Below the pieces are notes generated by a model. That model did not search any database. It was not told the origin of the DNA and worked only from the letters and a program-made list of their open reading frames with translations. Positions 16,823 to 31,093 of a stretch of 37,861 nt of DNA are shown here, in pieces; the first letter of the stretch is position 1; every line of letters begins with the position of its first letter. The stretch is from Thermoleophilia bacterium (GTDB lineage Bacteria > Actinomycetota > Thermoleophilia > BMS3ABIN01): positions 1-37,861 of the forward strand of contig JAUSDE010000008.1 in assembly GCA_030650885.1 (NCBI GenBank). The letters run 5' to 3'. The position numbers and the translations under genes were made by a program.

Positions 16823-18463
16823 TTAAAACCAGTGCCGTAGCCACCACTTCTCGAACAGTACCTTGCCCCAATGCCAGGGGTGCATCGGCGGATAGAGCCG
16901 CACGGCCGGTTCGGGCTCGGCATAGAAGTTGCCACTGGCGATACCAGCTTTCCCGTCTCCCAGCTCCAGCCAGCAGTATCCTTTGCCGTTGAATGTCGCT
17001 GTCGCTGGTTTTCCTTCTATTTCGGCGAGGATACGCTCGGCGACGACCCCGGCCTCGTAATGGGCGAAAACCCCCGCCATGGGAAGGTTCTTGCCGTTGG
17101 CCAGCCTGATACTGTTGACGTCGCCGATGGCGTATACGCCTTCATGCTCCGTCGCCATCGTGTGGGGGTCTGTATGCATCCATCCGGACGAACCGATAAG
17201 CCCGGAGCTGCGCACCACCTCAGGCGCCCGGTGCGGCGGAATGGCAAGAAGCAGGTCTACTTTCTGCGGTTCTCCGCCAGACTTGATGATGGTTCGCTCG
17301 CTGGGATCCATCTTCTCGAAAGTGAACAGCGGATGGTACTGGATGTTGCGCTTGTGCAACACCTTTGTTATAGCTTCCCCCATGGCCGTCCCGGTAACGG
17401 GCATGGGCTGGTGCTCGGGGGTATATATGTGGATCTCCGACCTGTCACGCACGCCCTTTTTGCGCAGGAAGGACTCCACCAGGAGCGCTGCCTCATAAGG
17501 CGCCGCGGGACACTTGAAAGGCATGTCGGTGACCAGCACACCCACTGTGCCGCCGGAAAACGAGTCCAGGGCAGCGTTGATCTTCGCCGTACCCTCCAGG
17601 TCATATAGATTGAGGGCCATCTCGTCAAAACCCTCCACCTCGTCCGGCCTGAGCTGGGCGCCCAGAGAAACGATCAGAAAGTCAAAATCGATTGCCTGCG
17701 ACTTTGTTCTCACCTGCCTGGAGGCGGCATCTATTTCCACGACCTCCTCATTGATAAACTCGACGCCCTTCCGGGTCAGGTCTGAAAGCGGCCGCTGGAT
17801 CTGGTCTGCACGCCGCTGCCCCACGGCATGCCAGAGCAGCGATGACTGGAAAAGGTGATTTGGCGAGCGGTCTATAAGAATGATGCGATCCCTGCCGGAT
17901 AGCTTGCGGCGCAAGTGATGGGCGGCCACCAGCCCGCCGGCACCGCCGCCGAGGATAACGATGTTCGCTCCCAACCCCCGGCCGGCGCGCTGTGGCACCG
18001 CACGGACAGCAGCCTCAGGCTCAGCCTGCGCGTCGGTCGGCTCCTGGAAGAGCTTCTCGACGACAGCGGCAAAGCCCTCCTCTTCAAACTCGCTCTCCCA
18101 CAAGACGACCTTGCCGTCAGACCCTACCAGCAAGGTGTAAGGCACCCAGCCGTTGCTAAGCTTTTTGAATATGGTCCCGTCTTCATCCGGGATCACGTCG
18201 AACGGCAGCTCGTACTCTTCCTTCCACTCCTGGCAGCTTTCGCTGGTTTCAAAGGGCCCCACATATACAACTGAAAGCCCCTTGGACGAGAAGCGCTCAT
18301 ACAGGCGCTTTATGGCGGGAGCCTCCCGCCGGCAGCCCTGTCACTGCCCTTTCCAGAATACGATGAGCAGGCCTCCTGTAGTCGAGGGAGGCAGGCCCAG
18401 TTCGTCAAGCGGAACCAGGGTCCCTTCAGCGACGCCCTTGTTGCCCTCGTCGATAACTTTCAT
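16823..18463 (-). CDS. Thioredoxin-fold (TlpA/redoxin-like, UxxC) domain fused to an FAD-dependent sulfide:quinone-oxidoreductase-like flavoprotein. Candidate selenoprotein with in-frame TGA at 18341-18343
   Basis: ATG 18463 (GGAG 7 nt upstream) opens MKVIDEGNKGVAEGTLVPLDELGLPPSTTGGLLIVFWKGQ-[TGA]-QGCRREAPAIKRLYERFSSKGLSVVYV-GPFETSESCQEW..., continuous with track ORF 16823..18262. Total length is 1641 nt, or 547 codons including stop. The SQR-like part has NIVILGGGAGGLVAAH (FAD fold), FKCPAAPYEAAL, GVYAIGD and KGYCWLELG. Confidence 0.6.
18301..18340 (-). promoter_or_regulatory. Candidate bacterial SECIS-like hairpin immediately 3' of the in-frame UGA
   Basis: mRNA: UGA CAGGGC UGCC GGCGGG-AGGCU-CCCGCC AUAAA GCgCCUG. 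The upper stem is 6-7 bp (18314-18330), starts 10 nt after the UGA and has a G-containing apical loop. A lower stem CAGG(G)C/GC(G)CCUG is possible. Confidence 0.45.
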
Positions 18464-18466
18464 TAG

Positions 18467-18817
18467 CTATCTCCTTTTTTCGCTCAGGCTGGCCACAAAA
18501 TCCTGTTCTACCTGCAGGCCCTCGAGCAAGACTTCCTTCATCGTGTCCATGGCCTTGAAGATTTTCGGGTTGGAAACGGTATAGAACATATTGGTGCCAT
18601 CGCGGCGTGATATAACCATCCCTTTCTGGCGCAGGAACGAAAGGTGCTGCGATACATTGGTCCGCGAGATCTCTGCCAGCGCGGCGATCTCACCTACTGA
18701 TCTTTCGCCGTCGCGCAACAGGTTGAGAATCTCGATCCGCTTGGCGCTTGTCAGCACCTTGCAGATCTCAGCGTGCATTTCATACAGTTTCCGGTTGAGA
18801 TCGTCAGTCATATCCAT
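18467..18817 (-). CDS. ArsR/SmtB-family transcriptional regulator
   Basis: Winged HTH KRIEILNLLRDGERSVGEIAALAEISRTNVSQHLSFLRQKGMVISRRDGTNMFYTV. Its TAG stop (18467-18469) is 3 nt from the downstream ATG (18463). Confidence 0.85.
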   Translation of the reverse strand: MDMTDDLNRKLYEMHAEICKVLTSAKRIEILNLLRDGERSVGEIAALAEISRTNVSQHLSFLRQKGMVISRRDGTNMFYTVSNPKIFKAMDTMKEVLLEGLQVEQDFVASLSEKRR

Positions 18818-29418: not shown

Positions 29419-30234
29419 ATGGCGGAACAAAAATTCATAACCTTCCTCAGCGATTTCGGCCTGGCAGACGACTTCGTCGGTACCTGCCGTGGCGTCATCA
29501 AAAAGATCTCCCCTGAGGTGCAGATCATCGACATCACCCACGGAGTCGCACGCCATGACATCCTTCAGGGCGCGGTCATCCTGGCCAACGCCGTCCCCTA
29601 TATGCCCGAAAGCGTGATCCTGGCGGTTGTCGATCCTGGAGTCGGCGGAGAACGAAAGTCGCTTGCCATCCGCACCGTTTCTGGGCAATACCTGGTTGGC
29701 CCGGATAACGGTCTGTTATCACTCGCGGCCGATGTTTTGGGCGGACCTGAGGCGGCGGTCGAGCTCGCCTGTTCCACTTACAGCCTGCCCGAGGTATGCA
29801 AGACTTTTGAAGGGCGTGACCTGTTTTCGCCAGCCGCCGCCCATCTTGCCCGGGGCGTCGACATGGAGAAGCTGGGCGCTTCTGTGCCCGTGGCAGGACT
29901 GACAAAACTGGAACTACCCGAACCAGCCATCGCCGGGCCGGAAGTTACGGCCACCACCATCTATGTCGACAGCTTCGGCAACGTACAGCTTCATCTCAGC
30001 CGCGAGCAGCTGGAACATGTCGGCGCCGCAGTTGGCAGCATGCTGGAGGTGAGCCACGGCGAGGAAAACTGGAAGGTCCCCTTTGTGCGCTCCTTCTCGG
30101 ATGTGGCTCCCGAGGAGATCATGGTCTACGAGGATTCGTACCACAAGATATCTTTTGCGGTGAACCAGGGAGATGCCGCCGGCGTCTTTCAGATCGCGCC
30201 TGGAAACCAGATGACCTTCAGGGCAATCGGCTGA
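29419..30234 (+). CDS. S-adenosyl-L-methionine hydroxide adenosyltransferase family protein (DUF62, SAM hydrolase/halogenase family)
   Basis: LSDFGLADDFVGTCRGVI, VVDPGVGGERK, GPDNGLL, FEGRDLFSPAAAHLARG, VDSFGNV. ATG 29419 is preferred over TTG 29407. An extended -10 (TGaTATACT) lies at 29364-29372. Confidence 0.88.
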   Translation: MAEQKFITFLSDFGLADDFVGTCRGVIKKISPEVQIIDITHGVARHDILQGAVILANAVPYMPESVILAVVDPGVGGERKSLAIRTVSGQYLVGPDNGLLSLAADVLGGPEAAVELACSTYSLPEVCKTFEGRDLFSPAAAHLARGVDMEKLGASVPVAGLTKLELPEPAIAGPEVTATTIYVDSFGNVQLHLSREQLEHVGAAVGSMLEVSHGEENWKVPFVRSFSDVAPEEIMVYEDSYHKISFAVNQGDAAGVFQIAPGNQMTFRAIG

Positions 30235-30236
30235 CC

Positions 30237-30521
30237 GTGATAGACAATAACAGGACCGACGGAACGCCAGCGAGCAGCTCCGGGGCGTCAGACACGACCA
30301 TCCTCCTTTTCGATACTACCCACACGGCAATGGCGGGCGAGCAGGCCATCATCGACGCCGGCTTCTGGTGCGATGTGGTGCCTAAGCCGCCGGACGCGAT
30401 GACCGGCCTTTGCGGGCTTGCCATCGCCATACGCGATGAGGACCTGGCGGCTGTCAGGGAAACCCTGGTGAACGCCGGCCTGGCTTTTGAAATCTACCAG
30501 CCGGAAGTGGAGGCTCATTGA
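30237..30521 (+). CDS. DUF3343 (putative Se/S carrier-like) small protein
   Basis: LLFDTTHTAMAGEQAIIDAGFWCDVVPKPPDAMTGLCGLAIAI matches the DUF3343 pattern as I recall it (helix, then P-x-P...CG-hydrophobic). GTG start lies 3 nt after the upstream stop. Confidence 0.6.
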   Translation: MIDNNRTDGTPASSSGASDTTILLFDTTHTAMAGEQAIIDAGFWCDVVPKPPDAMTGLCGLAIAIRDEDLAAVRETLVNAGLAFEIYQPEVEAH

Positions 30522-31093
30522 ATCAGGAACAACTTTCGGGGGGCGAGAAAAACGACGGCCTCGACCGGCGCCTGTTCATCGCGCTACGCACCCGCTGGCA
30601 TGTCCAGCCGCTTCAGGCGGTGCTGACCGCGCTCTCGGTCAGCGGTAACAATGGCTTCCTCTGGATCGGGCTTGCGGTGCCCGTCTTCTGGGCGGCCGGT
30701 GACGGTCTCCTTGGCATCGTATCCAGGCTGGTCTTCATGGCAGTCGTTGTGTACTCAACACTGGCGATTAACTACGCCGTAAAGCAGATCCTGGGCCATG
30801 AAAGACCCGCGCTGGACGATCCTGCACTACTGCCGCTCGTCGGCGTGCCTTCAAGTAAATCGTTCCCTTCTTCCCACGCAGCGATGTCATTCGCGGCGGC
30901 GACTATTTATGTCTATTTCATGACTGCGGTGTGGCCATTCTTCCTGGCCTTTGCTCTCTTCTACGGCCTCGCCCTGCTGGTTTCCTGGAGCAGGGTCTAT
31001 GTCGGCGTACACTTTCCATCAGACGTCCTGGCAGGCATGTTCGTCGGCCTGGCATCGGGATGCTTCTGGGCTATTTTCCTTCATTTCTTATAA
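30518..31093 (+). CDS. PAP2-family phosphatase (membrane)
   Basis: KxxxxxxRP (KQILGHERP), PSSH (SFPSSHAA) and SRxxxxxHxxxD (SRVYVGVHFPSDV) motifs. TTGA overlap with the DUF3343 stop. Confidence 0.85.
   Translation: MNQEQLSGGEKNDGLDRRLFIALRTRWHVQPLQAVLTALSVSGNNGFLWIGLAVPVFWAAGDGLLGIVSRLVFMAVVVYSTLAINYAVKQILGHERPALDDPALLPLVGVPSSKSFPSSHAAMSFAAATIYVYFMTAVWPFFLAFALFYGLALLVSWSRVYVGVHFPSDVLAGMFVGLASGCFWAIFLHFL

What the first reader, a model, noticed from the sequence alone, without database searches (positions are those of the whole stretch)
18301..18343. Hairpin with G-containing apical loop starting 10 nt after the in-frame UGA (SECIS-like)
Seen directly: the mRNA reads UGA-CAGGGCUGCC-GGCGGG-AGGCU-CCCGCC-AUAAAGCGCCUG. 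The upper helix GGCGGG/CCCGCC (plus a possible A-U closing pair) occupies 18330-18314. The flanks CAGG-GC and GC-g-CCUG can form a lower helix separated by an internal loop.

Established knowledge: bacterial SECIS elements are stem-loops inside the coding sequence immediately 3' of the UGA. The SelB-binding apical part lies roughly 10-11 nt downstream and carries unpaired G/U in the loop region.

Inference: the position and shape fit, but GC-rich coding DNA forms many hairpins by chance.
Basis: partly seen in the sequence, partly recalled or inferred. Interest (0 to 1): 0.6.

Follow-up and report, generated by a model that had tools for sequence, protein, structure and literature searches.

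The report
Selenocysteine recoding hairpin in redoxin-SQR gene
The hairpin is almost certainly a real bacterial selenocysteine-insertion signal (SECIS): it makes the ribosome read an internal UGA as selenocysteine in a 546-residue redox enzyme that public annotation cuts short, so it is a solid but ordinary example of a known mechanism.

Summary
On the minus strand, UGA (18343-18341) is followed by a 10-nt spacer and a 17-nt hairpin at 18330-18314: GGCGGGA / GGC / UCCCGCC.

The SECIS reading is supported by these results:
- The hairpin meets all four criteria of the published bacterial SECIS model.
- It is the most synonymously constrained part of the gene (pS 0.19 against 0.57-0.66 elsewhere).
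- Its six core pairs form in 53 of 53 distinct family sequences from at least five phyla.
- One pair switches between G-C and A-U with no broken intermediate, and the tree needs at least two switches.
- The same geometry follows the Sec-UGA of selD in close relatives (same 10-nt spacer) and, with a 12-nt spacer, of fdhA in this genome.
- The genome carries tRNA-Sec(UCA), selA and selB. selD was not found in this 94%-complete assembly but is present in 5 of 5 close relatives.

The UGA sits at the first Cys position of a UxxC motif. That motif lies in a ResA/Prx-like domain fused to a type III SQR-like flavoprotein.

No Cys-containing fused orthologue was found.

This scan has already reported the same fusion family in three other genomes.

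Verdict: a new member of a known kind, of moderate interest.

The parts
18341..18343 (-). In-frame UGA read as selenocysteine (U41). It is the first position of the UxxC redox motif FWKGQ-U-QGC.
   Evidence: Searches show the codon and its frame. The TGA is conserved at this position in 16/16 family orthologues and in 18/18 full-length genes from other genomes. It aligns with the first Cys of FWASWCxPC in Cys-containing homologues.
18331..18340 (-). 10-nt spacer (CAGGGCUGCC) between the UGA and the base of the SECIS stem.
   Evidence: The spacer length is invariant in all 53 distinct family sequences, with no indels. selD of close relatives has the same 10-nt spacing.
18314..18330 (-). SECIS upper hairpin. 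The 5' arm GGCGGGA is at 18330-18324, the apical GGC at 18323-18321 and the 3' arm UCCCGCC at 18320-18314. It can equally be read as a 6-bp stem with the pentaloop A-GGC-U.
   Evidence: RNAfold gives -12.2 kcal/mol for the 17-mer, and it is the only helix in the RNAalifold consensus. The six core pairs form in 53/53 sequences. Pair 18327/18317 is G-C in 16 and A-U in 37, and is never broken. Synonymous constraint peaks here.
18301..18313 (-). 3' flank (AUAAAGCGCCUGU). In the window it pairs with 18334-18341 to form a lower helix, which is not conserved outside the close clade.
   Evidence: The helix is present in the MFE fold of the window and its close relatives. It is absent from distant members and from the consensus structure. 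The flank is still synonymously constrained within the close clade.
16823..18463 (-). Full selenoprotein gene of 546 codons plus stop. An N-terminal ResA/Prx-like thioredoxin-fold domain (residues about 30-128, UxxC) is fused to a type III SQR-like flavoprotein (residues about 165-546).
   Evidence: Pfam hits are AhpC-TSA, Redoxin, Pyr_redox_2 and FCSD_central. NCBIfam gives SQR_III_seleno at 251 bits, below its cut-off of 525, and ResA. PDB hits are SQR/FCSD and ResA. pN/pS upstream of the UGA is 0.23, the same as in the rest of the gene.
18471..18474 (-). Shine-Dalgarno GGAG, 7 nt upstream of the ATG at 18463, which is the true start upstream of the UGA.
   Evidence: One search shows it in the window. 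Similar purine-rich SD-like motifs precede the same start in the 15 complete same-family genes, window included.
18467..18817 (-). ArsR-family HTH regulator gene. Its stop lies 3 nt before the selenoprotein start, so the two are probably one operon.
   Evidence: Pfam HTH_5 with E = 5.6e-15; coordinates.

Best explanation
The hairpin at 18330-18314 is a functional bacterial SECIS element.

Proposed mechanism:
- When the ribosome reaches UGA-41 of the 546-codon gene, the hairpin lies 10 nt downstream, just outside the mRNA entry channel.
- Its apical G-containing loop is bound by the C-terminal winged-helix domains of SelB.
- SelB-GTP then delivers Sec-tRNA(Sec, anticodon UCA) to the A site, so selenocysteine is inserted instead of termination.
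- The product is a UxxC selenoprotein: a ResA/Prx-like redox domain fused to a type III SQR-like flavoprotein.

What is shown here:
- the structure, its position and its conservation;
- covariation and synonymous-site constraint;
- coding selection on both sides of the UGA;
- presence of tRNA-Sec, SelA and SelB.

What is inferred from established knowledge of the E. coli and Moorella SelB-SECIS systems:
- SelB binding to the loop;
- actual Sec insertion.

The enzyme's chemistry is a lower-confidence inference. The selenolate/thiol pair may exchange electrons or sulfane sulfur with the two conserved SQR-type cysteines, C318 in KCPAAPYE and C497 in GKGYCW.
For: (1) Anatomy fits the published bSECIS model, as quoted in PMC13188914. 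That model requires an apical loop of 3-9 nt, an upper stem of 4-16 bp, a G in the first two loop positions with the pattern N1-G-[G|U]-N-N2, 16-37 nt from UGA to the loop, and MFE <= -7.5. Here the loop is A-G-G-C-U, the stem is 6-7 bp, the distance is 16-17 nt, and the energy is -12.2 (hairpin) or -25.1 kcal/mol.

(2) Synonymous constraint. Codon identity among same-amino-acid pairs peaks at codons 40-58, at 0.88 against a gene mean of 0.56. All of the 15 top-ranked 12-codon windows start at codons 36-50. pS is 0.185 in codons 42-58 against 0.57-0.66 elsewhere.

(3) Conservation and covariation.
- The six core pairs form in 53/53 distinct sequences. These include 28 metagenomic ones selected without reference to the hairpin.
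- One pair is G-C in 16 and A-U in 37, and is never broken. The switch links an Arg/Gln codon change to a synonymous Pro third position.
- The gene tree needs 3 switches, and at least 2 are forced by well-supported branches.

(4) The sequence upstream of the UGA is coding. pN/pS is 0.227 for codons 1-40 against 0.23 downstream, and an SD precedes the ATG at 18463.

(5) The machinery is present. tRNA-Sec scores 67.8 bits and has anticodon TCA. selB (353 bits) and selA (507 bits) lie next to it on contig C43.

(6) Other selenoprotein genes of the lineage use the same geometry.
- selD of 5/5 relatives has UGA-N10-7 bp-GUC triloop.
- fdhA of this genome (HCART-U-H) has N12-7 bp-GUC.

(7) UGA is also a true stop in this genome. 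It ends fdhA, and several orthologues of this gene end in TGA.

(8) Cys-containing homologues with the same C..CR.EAP peptide lack the hairpin.
Against: - There is no experimental evidence of Sec insertion or SelB binding.
- The single-sequence dinucleotide-shuffle z-score is only -1.94.
- No Rfam SECIS family matches, even at E <= 10.
- selD was not found in this genome (best hit 43 bits). The assembly is 94% complete in 198 contigs.
- Covariation rests on one stem position. The other pairs are invariant or change only to G-U.
- The peptide encoded here (CRREAPAIKRLYERF) is itself conserved, so part of the nucleotide conservation is protein-level.
Confidence: 0.9

Rival explanations
1. The TGA is an ordinary stop. 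A 40-codon upstream ORF ends there, the real gene starts at GTG 18262 (479 aa), and the hairpin is a chance or protein-driven feature of GC-rich coding DNA.
For: Table-11 ORF listing and public gene calls give exactly this model: a 479-aa ORF at 16823-18262, and 120/120 top database relatives are truncated calls. The dinucleotide-shuffle z-score is only -1.94.
Against: - This model would cut a thioredoxin fold in the middle of its CxxC motif.
- Codons 1-40 evolve under the same purifying selection as the rest of the gene (pN/pS 0.227).
- The frame and the TGA are kept in every full-length family gene found in the protein-based genome searches (16/16 and 18/18).
- The SD sits before ATG 18463.
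- Synonymous sites are constrained only at the hairpin.
- A compensatory change involves a synonymous Pro position.
Confidence: 0.03
2. The UGA is read through or recoded by a mechanism other than SelB/SECIS, for example as Trp, Gly or Cys by near-cognate or reassigned decoding. The hairpin would then only stimulate read-through or pause the ribosome.
For: selD was not found in this assembly. Downstream stem-loops can stimulate stop-codon read-through in other systems (general knowledge).
Against: - tRNA-Sec(UCA), selA and selB are present and clustered.
- selD is present, itself with an in-frame TGA, in 5/5 closest relatives.
- TGA serves as a genuine stop in the same genome.
- The recoded position is the catalytic Cys position of a CxxC motif, which is the classic Sec site.
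- Loop sequence and spacing fit the SelB-type consensus.
Confidence: 0.04
3. The conserved hairpin is a regulatory RNA element unrelated to recoding, such as an mRNA-stability element, an RNase site or an attenuator. It merely happens to follow the UGA.
For: Nothing specific. It is a stable GC-rich hairpin inside an operon that has its own ArsR regulator.
Against: - The fixed 10-nt distance to the UGA holds in 53/53 sequences.
- A G[G/U]N apical loop of the same geometry follows the Sec-UGA of selD and fdhA in the lineage.
- No T-run or terminator features are present.
Confidence: 0.02

Closest known systems
Bacterial SECIS element (consensus model of Zhang and Gladyshev, bSECISearch, as summarised in PMC13188914). 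The archetype is E. coli fdhF, with a 17-nt minimal upper stem-loop about 11 nt from the UGA; that last detail is from memory.
   Same: - A stem-loop inside the coding sequence immediately 3' of the Sec-UGA.
[quoted passage not shown]
- A 6-7 bp GC-rich upper stem.
- 16-17 nt from the UGA to the loop.
- MFE well below -7.5 kcal/mol.
   Different: - It sits at the short extreme of the allowed UGA-to-loop distance.
- It has no bulged U in the stem.
- The loop is a triloop/pentaloop rather than the GGUC tetraloop of fdhF.
- No Rfam covariance model recognises it.
- It is almost invariant across at least five phyla.
Prx-like thiol:disulfide oxidoreductase selenoproteins ('Prx-like 1', PF00578, UxxC; Kryukov and Gladyshev 2004; GOS study PMC2398784).
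   Same: The N-terminal domain hits PF00578 and Redoxin above their cut-offs, and Sec sits at the first position of UxxC.
   Different: Here the domain is fused to a roughly 380-residue SQR-like flavoprotein. The fusions listed in the papers I read (PP2C, Unknown_1-3, secretin-like) do not include this one. No Cys-containing orthologue of the fusion was found, whereas Prx-like 1 has thousands of Cys homologues.
[quoted passage not shown]
   Same: It is the best NCBIfam hit for the C-terminal domain (251 bits), and it is an SQR-type flavoprotein that is also a selenoprotein.
   Different: The score is far below the family cut-off of 525. In that family Sec lies in an HxxU motif inside the flavoprotein, whereas here Sec lies in a separate N-terminal redoxin domain.
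SECIS elements of selD (close relatives) and fdhA (this genome).
   Same: A 7-bp stem and a G[G/U]C triloop, starting 10 nt (selD) or 12 nt (fdhA) after the UGA.
   Different: The stem sequences are unrelated (AAGUCC.. and GUGGCCG.. against GGCGGGA). Only the geometry and the loop are shared, as expected for targets of one SelB.

Membership tests
Bacterial SECIS (bSECIS consensus model, PMC13188914 Fig. 2 legend) | Apical loop of 3-9 nt on an upper stem of 4-16 bp | tested here: met
   A 7-bp stem with a 3-nt loop, or a 6-bp stem with a 5-nt loop.
Bacterial SECIS (bSECIS consensus model, PMC13188914 Fig. 2 legend) | At least one G in the first two apical-loop positions, usually in the pattern N1-G-[G|U]-N-N2 with N1 and N2 pairing | tested here: met
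   The window has A-G-G-C-U. Across the family the loops are AGGCU 26, AGUCU 14, AGUGU 10, AGGCC 2 and AGCGU 1. The G at loop position 2 is invariant.
Bacterial SECIS (bSECIS consensus model, PMC13188914 Fig. 2 legend) | [quoted passage not shown] | tested here: met
   A 10-nt spacer plus a 6- or 7-nt stem arm gives 16-17 nt, at the lower limit.
Bacterial SECIS (bSECIS consensus model, PMC13188914 Fig. 2 legend) | MFE <= -7.5 kcal/mol | tested here: met
   -12.2 kcal/mol for the 17-nt hairpin and -25.1 for UGA plus 48 nt.
Bacterial SECIS (functional definition) | It follows an in-frame UGA that aligns with Cys in homologues, inside a continuous conserved reading frame | tested here: met
   The UxxC aligns with the CxxC of ResA/TlpA-like homologues. 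pN/pS is 0.23 on both sides of the UGA.
Bacterial SECIS (functional definition) | The host encodes tRNA-Sec, SelA, SelB and SelD | tested here: inconclusive
   tRNA-Sec(UCA), selA and selB are found above their cut-offs. selD is not found in this 94%-complete assembly but is present in 5/5 closest relatives.
Bacterial SECIS (functional definition) | The structure is maintained by selection, shown by covariation and synonymous constraint | tested here: met
   One pair is 16 G-C and 37 A-U with none broken, and the tree forces at least 2 switches. pS is 0.185 against 0.57-0.66 elsewhere.
Bacterial SECIS (functional definition) | It binds SelB and directs selenium-dependent UGA decoding | not testable with these tools
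   This needs an EMSA or ITC binding test, a reporter assay, 75Se labelling or mass spectrometry.
Rfam SECIS families | A match to a curated covariance model | tested here: not met
   There was no hit at gathering thresholds over the whole window, and none at E <= 10 on 18200-18420.
Prx-like thiol:disulfide oxidoreductase selenoprotein (PF00578, UxxC) | A PF00578/Redoxin domain with Sec at the first position of UxxC | tested here: met
   PF00578 scores 53.8 bits against a cut-off of 26, and PF08534 scores 38.9 against 26.6. The motif is U41-Q-G-C44.
Type III SQR, selenoprotein subtype (NF049943) | A score above the curated cut-off, and Sec in an HxxU motif of the flavoprotein | tested here: not met
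   The score is 251 bits against a cut-off of 525. The only Sec lies in the N-terminal redoxin domain.

The most novel reading that the evidence does not exclude
The redoxin-SQR fusion may be a Sec-obligate family, because no Cys orthologue appeared in any search. It carries a near-invariant minimal 17-nt SECIS at a fixed 10-nt spacing through at least five phyla: Actinomycetota, Acidobacteriota, Gemmatimonadota, Thermodesulfobacteriota and Myxococcota. On this reading the gene and its recoding signal travel together by horizontal transfer. The hairpin would then be a 'portable' SECIS accepted by widely divergent SelB proteins, which is unusual because bacterial SECIS elements are generally regarded as species- and gene-specific.
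Probability: 0.35. Interest if true: 0.6.

Novelty: new member of a known kind. Interest (0 to 1): 0.45.

Why it matters
- Annotation. The gene is 546 codons long, not 479, and its active-site residue is selenocysteine. Every one of the top 120 database relatives is a truncated gene call named 'FAD-dependent oxidoreductase' or 'SQR'.
- A clean SECIS data set. The analysis yields 53 distinct sequences with fixed register, covariation and a synonymous-site footprint, for a bSECIS type that Rfam does not detect. Such a set could help train SECIS and selenoprotein predictors.
- Selenium use in the lineage. These deep-subsurface Thermoleophilia-type Actinomycetota appear to use selenium for at least fdhA, selD, this fusion and probably a DUF1573 lipoprotein.
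- Enzyme architecture. The enzyme tethers a selenolate redox centre to a sulfide:quinone-reductase-type flavoprotein, and the function of that arrangement has not been tested.

Tried and rejected
- **Rfam:** there was no hit at gathering thresholds on the whole window, and none at E <= 10 on the 221-nt region. The element cannot be filed under any Rfam SECIS family.
- **Cys-containing orthologues of the fusion:**
  - They were absent from 61 related genomes and from 301 genomes of the phylum.
  - They were absent from the 80 best loci of 185,579 species genomes and from the top 120 of 887 word-index hits.
  - They were absent from the top 150 of a full HMMER scan of 1.84 billion representatives.
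  - The two long candidates, P0216 and P0238, are frameshifted translations. L088 and L132 lack an intact N-terminal domain.
  - I therefore used distant Cys-containing ResA/TlpA-like homologues as the contrast.
rejected as a conserved part.
- **selD in the own genome:** not found. I attribute this to assembly incompleteness, because 5/5 relatives have it.
- **Literature:** in the papers I searched and read, I found no description of a redoxin-SQR fusion selenoprotein. This is not proof that none exists.
- **Structure prediction of the fusion:** not run, because the tool returns no coordinates from which a Sec-to-Cys distance could be measured.
Full report
**1. The observation**

The parts are:
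- UGA at 18343-18341;
- a 10-nt spacer, CAGGGCUGCC, at 18340-18331;
- a 17-nt hairpin, GGCGGGA / GGC / UCCCGCC, at 18330-18314;
- the flank AUAAAGCGCCUG.

RNAfold pairs the 7-bp upper stem and also a lower helix, with -26.1 kcal/mol for 57 nt.

A fairer control keeps the peptide and redraws synonymous codons from the window's own usage. It gives z = -3.4, with -25.1 against -15.0 +/- 3.0 and 0.22% of 5000 resamples as stable. For the 17-mer alone the figures are -12.2 against -5.05 +/- 2.57, with 1.6% as stable.

**2. The gene around it**

With TGA read as U, one frame runs from ATG 18463 to TAA 16823 (546 codons). The ATG is preceded by GGAG at 18474-18471.
- Residues 31-128 match AhpC-TSA, Redoxin and Thioredoxin_8. 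Residues 167-458 match Pyr_redox_2 and FCSD_central.
- The best NCBIfam hits are SQR_III_seleno (251 bits, below its cut-off of 525) and ResA.
- PDB relatives are SQR/FCSD flavoproteins and ResA.
- The UGA is the first position of FWKGQ-U-QGC, which is a UxxC redox motif.
- An ArsR-family regulator gene ends 3 nt upstream.
- The flanking genes are unrelated: a zinc peptidase and sugar-nucleotide enzymes.

**3. Is the UGA read through?**

Across the 15 complete genes of the same bacterial family (the window's and 14 orthologues), codons 1-40 upstream of the UGA have pS = 0.658, pN = 0.149 and pN/pS = 0.227. This is indistinguishable from codons 59-160 (0.232) and 161-546 (0.234). The region before the 'stop' is therefore translated in this frame.

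The frame and the TGA are kept everywhere I looked with protein-based searches:
- 16 of 16 family genomes, at 73-93% identity;
- 18 of 18 full-length genes found among 185,579 species genomes. These come from Thermoleophilia/Gaiellales, Desulfobacterales, Acidobacteria, Longimicrobiales and Myxococcales MAGs.

A further 31 metagenomic members also carry it, but they were retrieved with a DNA pattern that requires the TGA.

Five of the loci from the named collection encode proteins identical to those of handles in the window's own family. This places the window in a Thermoleophilia-type actinomycete lineage known from subsurface MAGs.

**4. Sec machinery**

On contig C43 the genome carries tRNA-Sec (67.8 bits, anticodon TCA), selB (353 bits, full length) and selA (507 bits) side by side.

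selD was not found (best hit 43 bits). The assembly is 94% complete in 198 contigs. All five closest relatives have selD at 367-380 bits, and each copy has its own in-frame TGA.

TGA is also an ordinary stop here. fdhA on C36 has Sec at HCART-U-H and then terminates at a TGA. Several orthologues of the fusion gene also end in TGA. A reassigned genetic code is therefore excluded.

**5. Is the hairpin under selection as RNA?**

(a) Synonymous footprint. The fraction of same-amino-acid pairs that use the identical codon peaks at 0.88 in 12-codon windows starting at codons 40-47 (spanning codons 40-58). The gene mean is 0.56, and all of the 15 top-ranked 12-codon windows start at codons 36-50. pS falls to 0.185 in codons 42-58.

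(b) Conservation. In 25 distinct genomic sequences, RNAalifold keeps only the upper 7-bp hairpin. To avoid ascertainment bias I scanned metagenomes with a pattern covering only the V-F-W-K codons, the TGA and the Cys and Arg codons, and not the hairpin itself. I then accepted hits by protein similarity to residues 59-200.
- All 28 distinct members form all six core pairs.
- Together with the genomic set, 53 of 53 do.
- Of the 38 unrelated pattern matches with enough downstream sequence to classify, one forms six pairs, and that one is rich in G-U pairs.

(c) Covariation. The fourth stem pair is G-C in 16 sequences and A-U in 37, and is never broken. The change couples CGG(Arg)/CAG(Gln) with the synonymous CCC/CCU(Pro), which protein-level selection cannot explain. 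On a maximum-likelihood tree the state needs three changes, and at least two are forced by well-supported branches. The other stem changes are G-C to G-U only.

(d) Contrast. I examined 19 Cys-containing ResA/TlpA-like sites from the phylum. They have the same FWxxxCxxCR.E.P peptide, yet none has a comparable hairpin at the equivalent place. The 17-nt window gives 0 to -8.7 kcal/mol there, against -12.2 here. One of these, L060, comes from the unpublished genome G172, and dropping it changes nothing.

**6. Fit to the known model**

The bSECIS consensus quoted in PMC13188914 asks for four things:
- a 3-9 nt loop on a 4-16 bp stem;
- G in the first two loop positions (N1-G-[G|U]-N-N2);
- 16-37 nt from UGA to the loop;
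- MFE <= -7.5.

All four are met: the loop is A-G-G-C-U, the distance is 16-17 nt, and the energy is -12.2 or -25.1.

Loop variants in the family are AGGCU, AGUCU, AGUGU, AGGCC and AGCGU, with the G invariant.

The same geometry follows the Sec-UGA of two other genes of the lineage:
- selD of relatives has N10, a 7-bp stem and a GUC loop;
- fdhA of this genome has N12, a 7-bp stem and a GUC loop.

This is what one SelB should require. Rfam has no matching model.

**7. What is not supported**

The lower helix exists only in the window's close clade. The Sec-versus-Cys orthologue contrast could not be made, because no Cys-containing fused orthologue turned up in any search.

**8. Mechanism**

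By analogy with the E. coli and Moorella systems (established knowledge, not tested here), SelB-GTP-Sec-tRNA(Sec) binds the apical loop while the UGA is in the A site, and Sec is inserted.

The resulting UxxC selenolate/thiol pair lies in a domain tethered to an SQR-type flavoprotein. That flavoprotein keeps the invariant cysteines C318 (KCPAAPYE) and C497 (GKGYCW). I infer that the two exchange reducing equivalents or sulfane sulfur. This step is speculative.

**9. Novelty and context**

The SECIS is a new member of a known kind. The host protein belongs to the known 'Prx-like UxxC' selenoprotein class, but in a fusion that I did not find in the selenoprotein papers I read.

Earlier notes of this scan report the same fusion family in three other genomes, which agrees with my results. 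I set the scores on my own tests.

An extra observation came from a crude whole-genome scan for UGA-N9-12-stem-G[G/U]N in open frames. Besides this gene and fdhA, it recovered a DUF1573 lipoprotein with a G-C-U motif. Its TGA is conserved in 9 relatives.

Noticed in passing
G000 contig C156:21943-22464 (L159:1444-1965, + strand): A 173-residue DUF1573/Ig-like lipoprotein has an in-frame TGA (U114, motif LEG-C-U-DAQ). A perfect 7-bp hairpin with a GUU triloop follows 12 nt downstream. The TGA is conserved in 9 relatives at 54-76% identity. This is a probable additional selenoprotein, and it lies next to a polyferredoxin-like membrane protein.
   Followed up: partly
G000 contig C36 (L158:2791-5472, - strand): This is the formate dehydrogenase alpha subunit, with Sec at HCART-U-HAPTV (U316). 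Its SECIS-like hairpin is N12-GUGGCCG-GUC-UGGCCAU. The gene's true stop is also a TGA, so TGA serves as both Sec codon and stop codon in this genome.
   Followed up: partly
L153-L157 (selD of G001, G002, G005, G009, G018): selD of all five closest relatives is itself a selenoprotein (HGAG-U-ACK). Its hairpin starts exactly 10 nt after the UGA and has a GUC triloop. selD was not found in the window's own 94%-complete assembly.
   Followed up: partly
window 18467-18817 (-): An ArsR-family HTH regulator gene with a single Cys (C19) ends 3 nt before the selenoprotein start. It could be a persulfide or redox sensor of the BigR/SqrR type, but those use two Cys. This was not examined.
   Followed up: no
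G001:C29:26614-27771, G005:C4:137975-139117, G009:C13:13917-15086, G018:C14:5980-7113: In several relatives a second, stand-alone SQR-like paralogue (43-45% identical, no redoxin domain, no TGA) lies within about 0.1-1.5 kb of the fusion gene. With this query no such paralogue was found anywhere in the window's own genome.
   Followed up: no
L088, L132; proteins P0216, P0238: Some family members in public data are frameshifted or lack an intact N-terminal domain, either as assembly errors or as pseudogenes. In length lists they can be mistaken for full-length Cys forms.
   Followed up: partly
window 29419-31093: An earlier first-reader note flags a DUF3343 (putative Se/S-carrier-like) protein in a gene trio in this window. 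It may be relevant to selenium handling in a Sec-using organism. I did not examine it.
   Followed up: no
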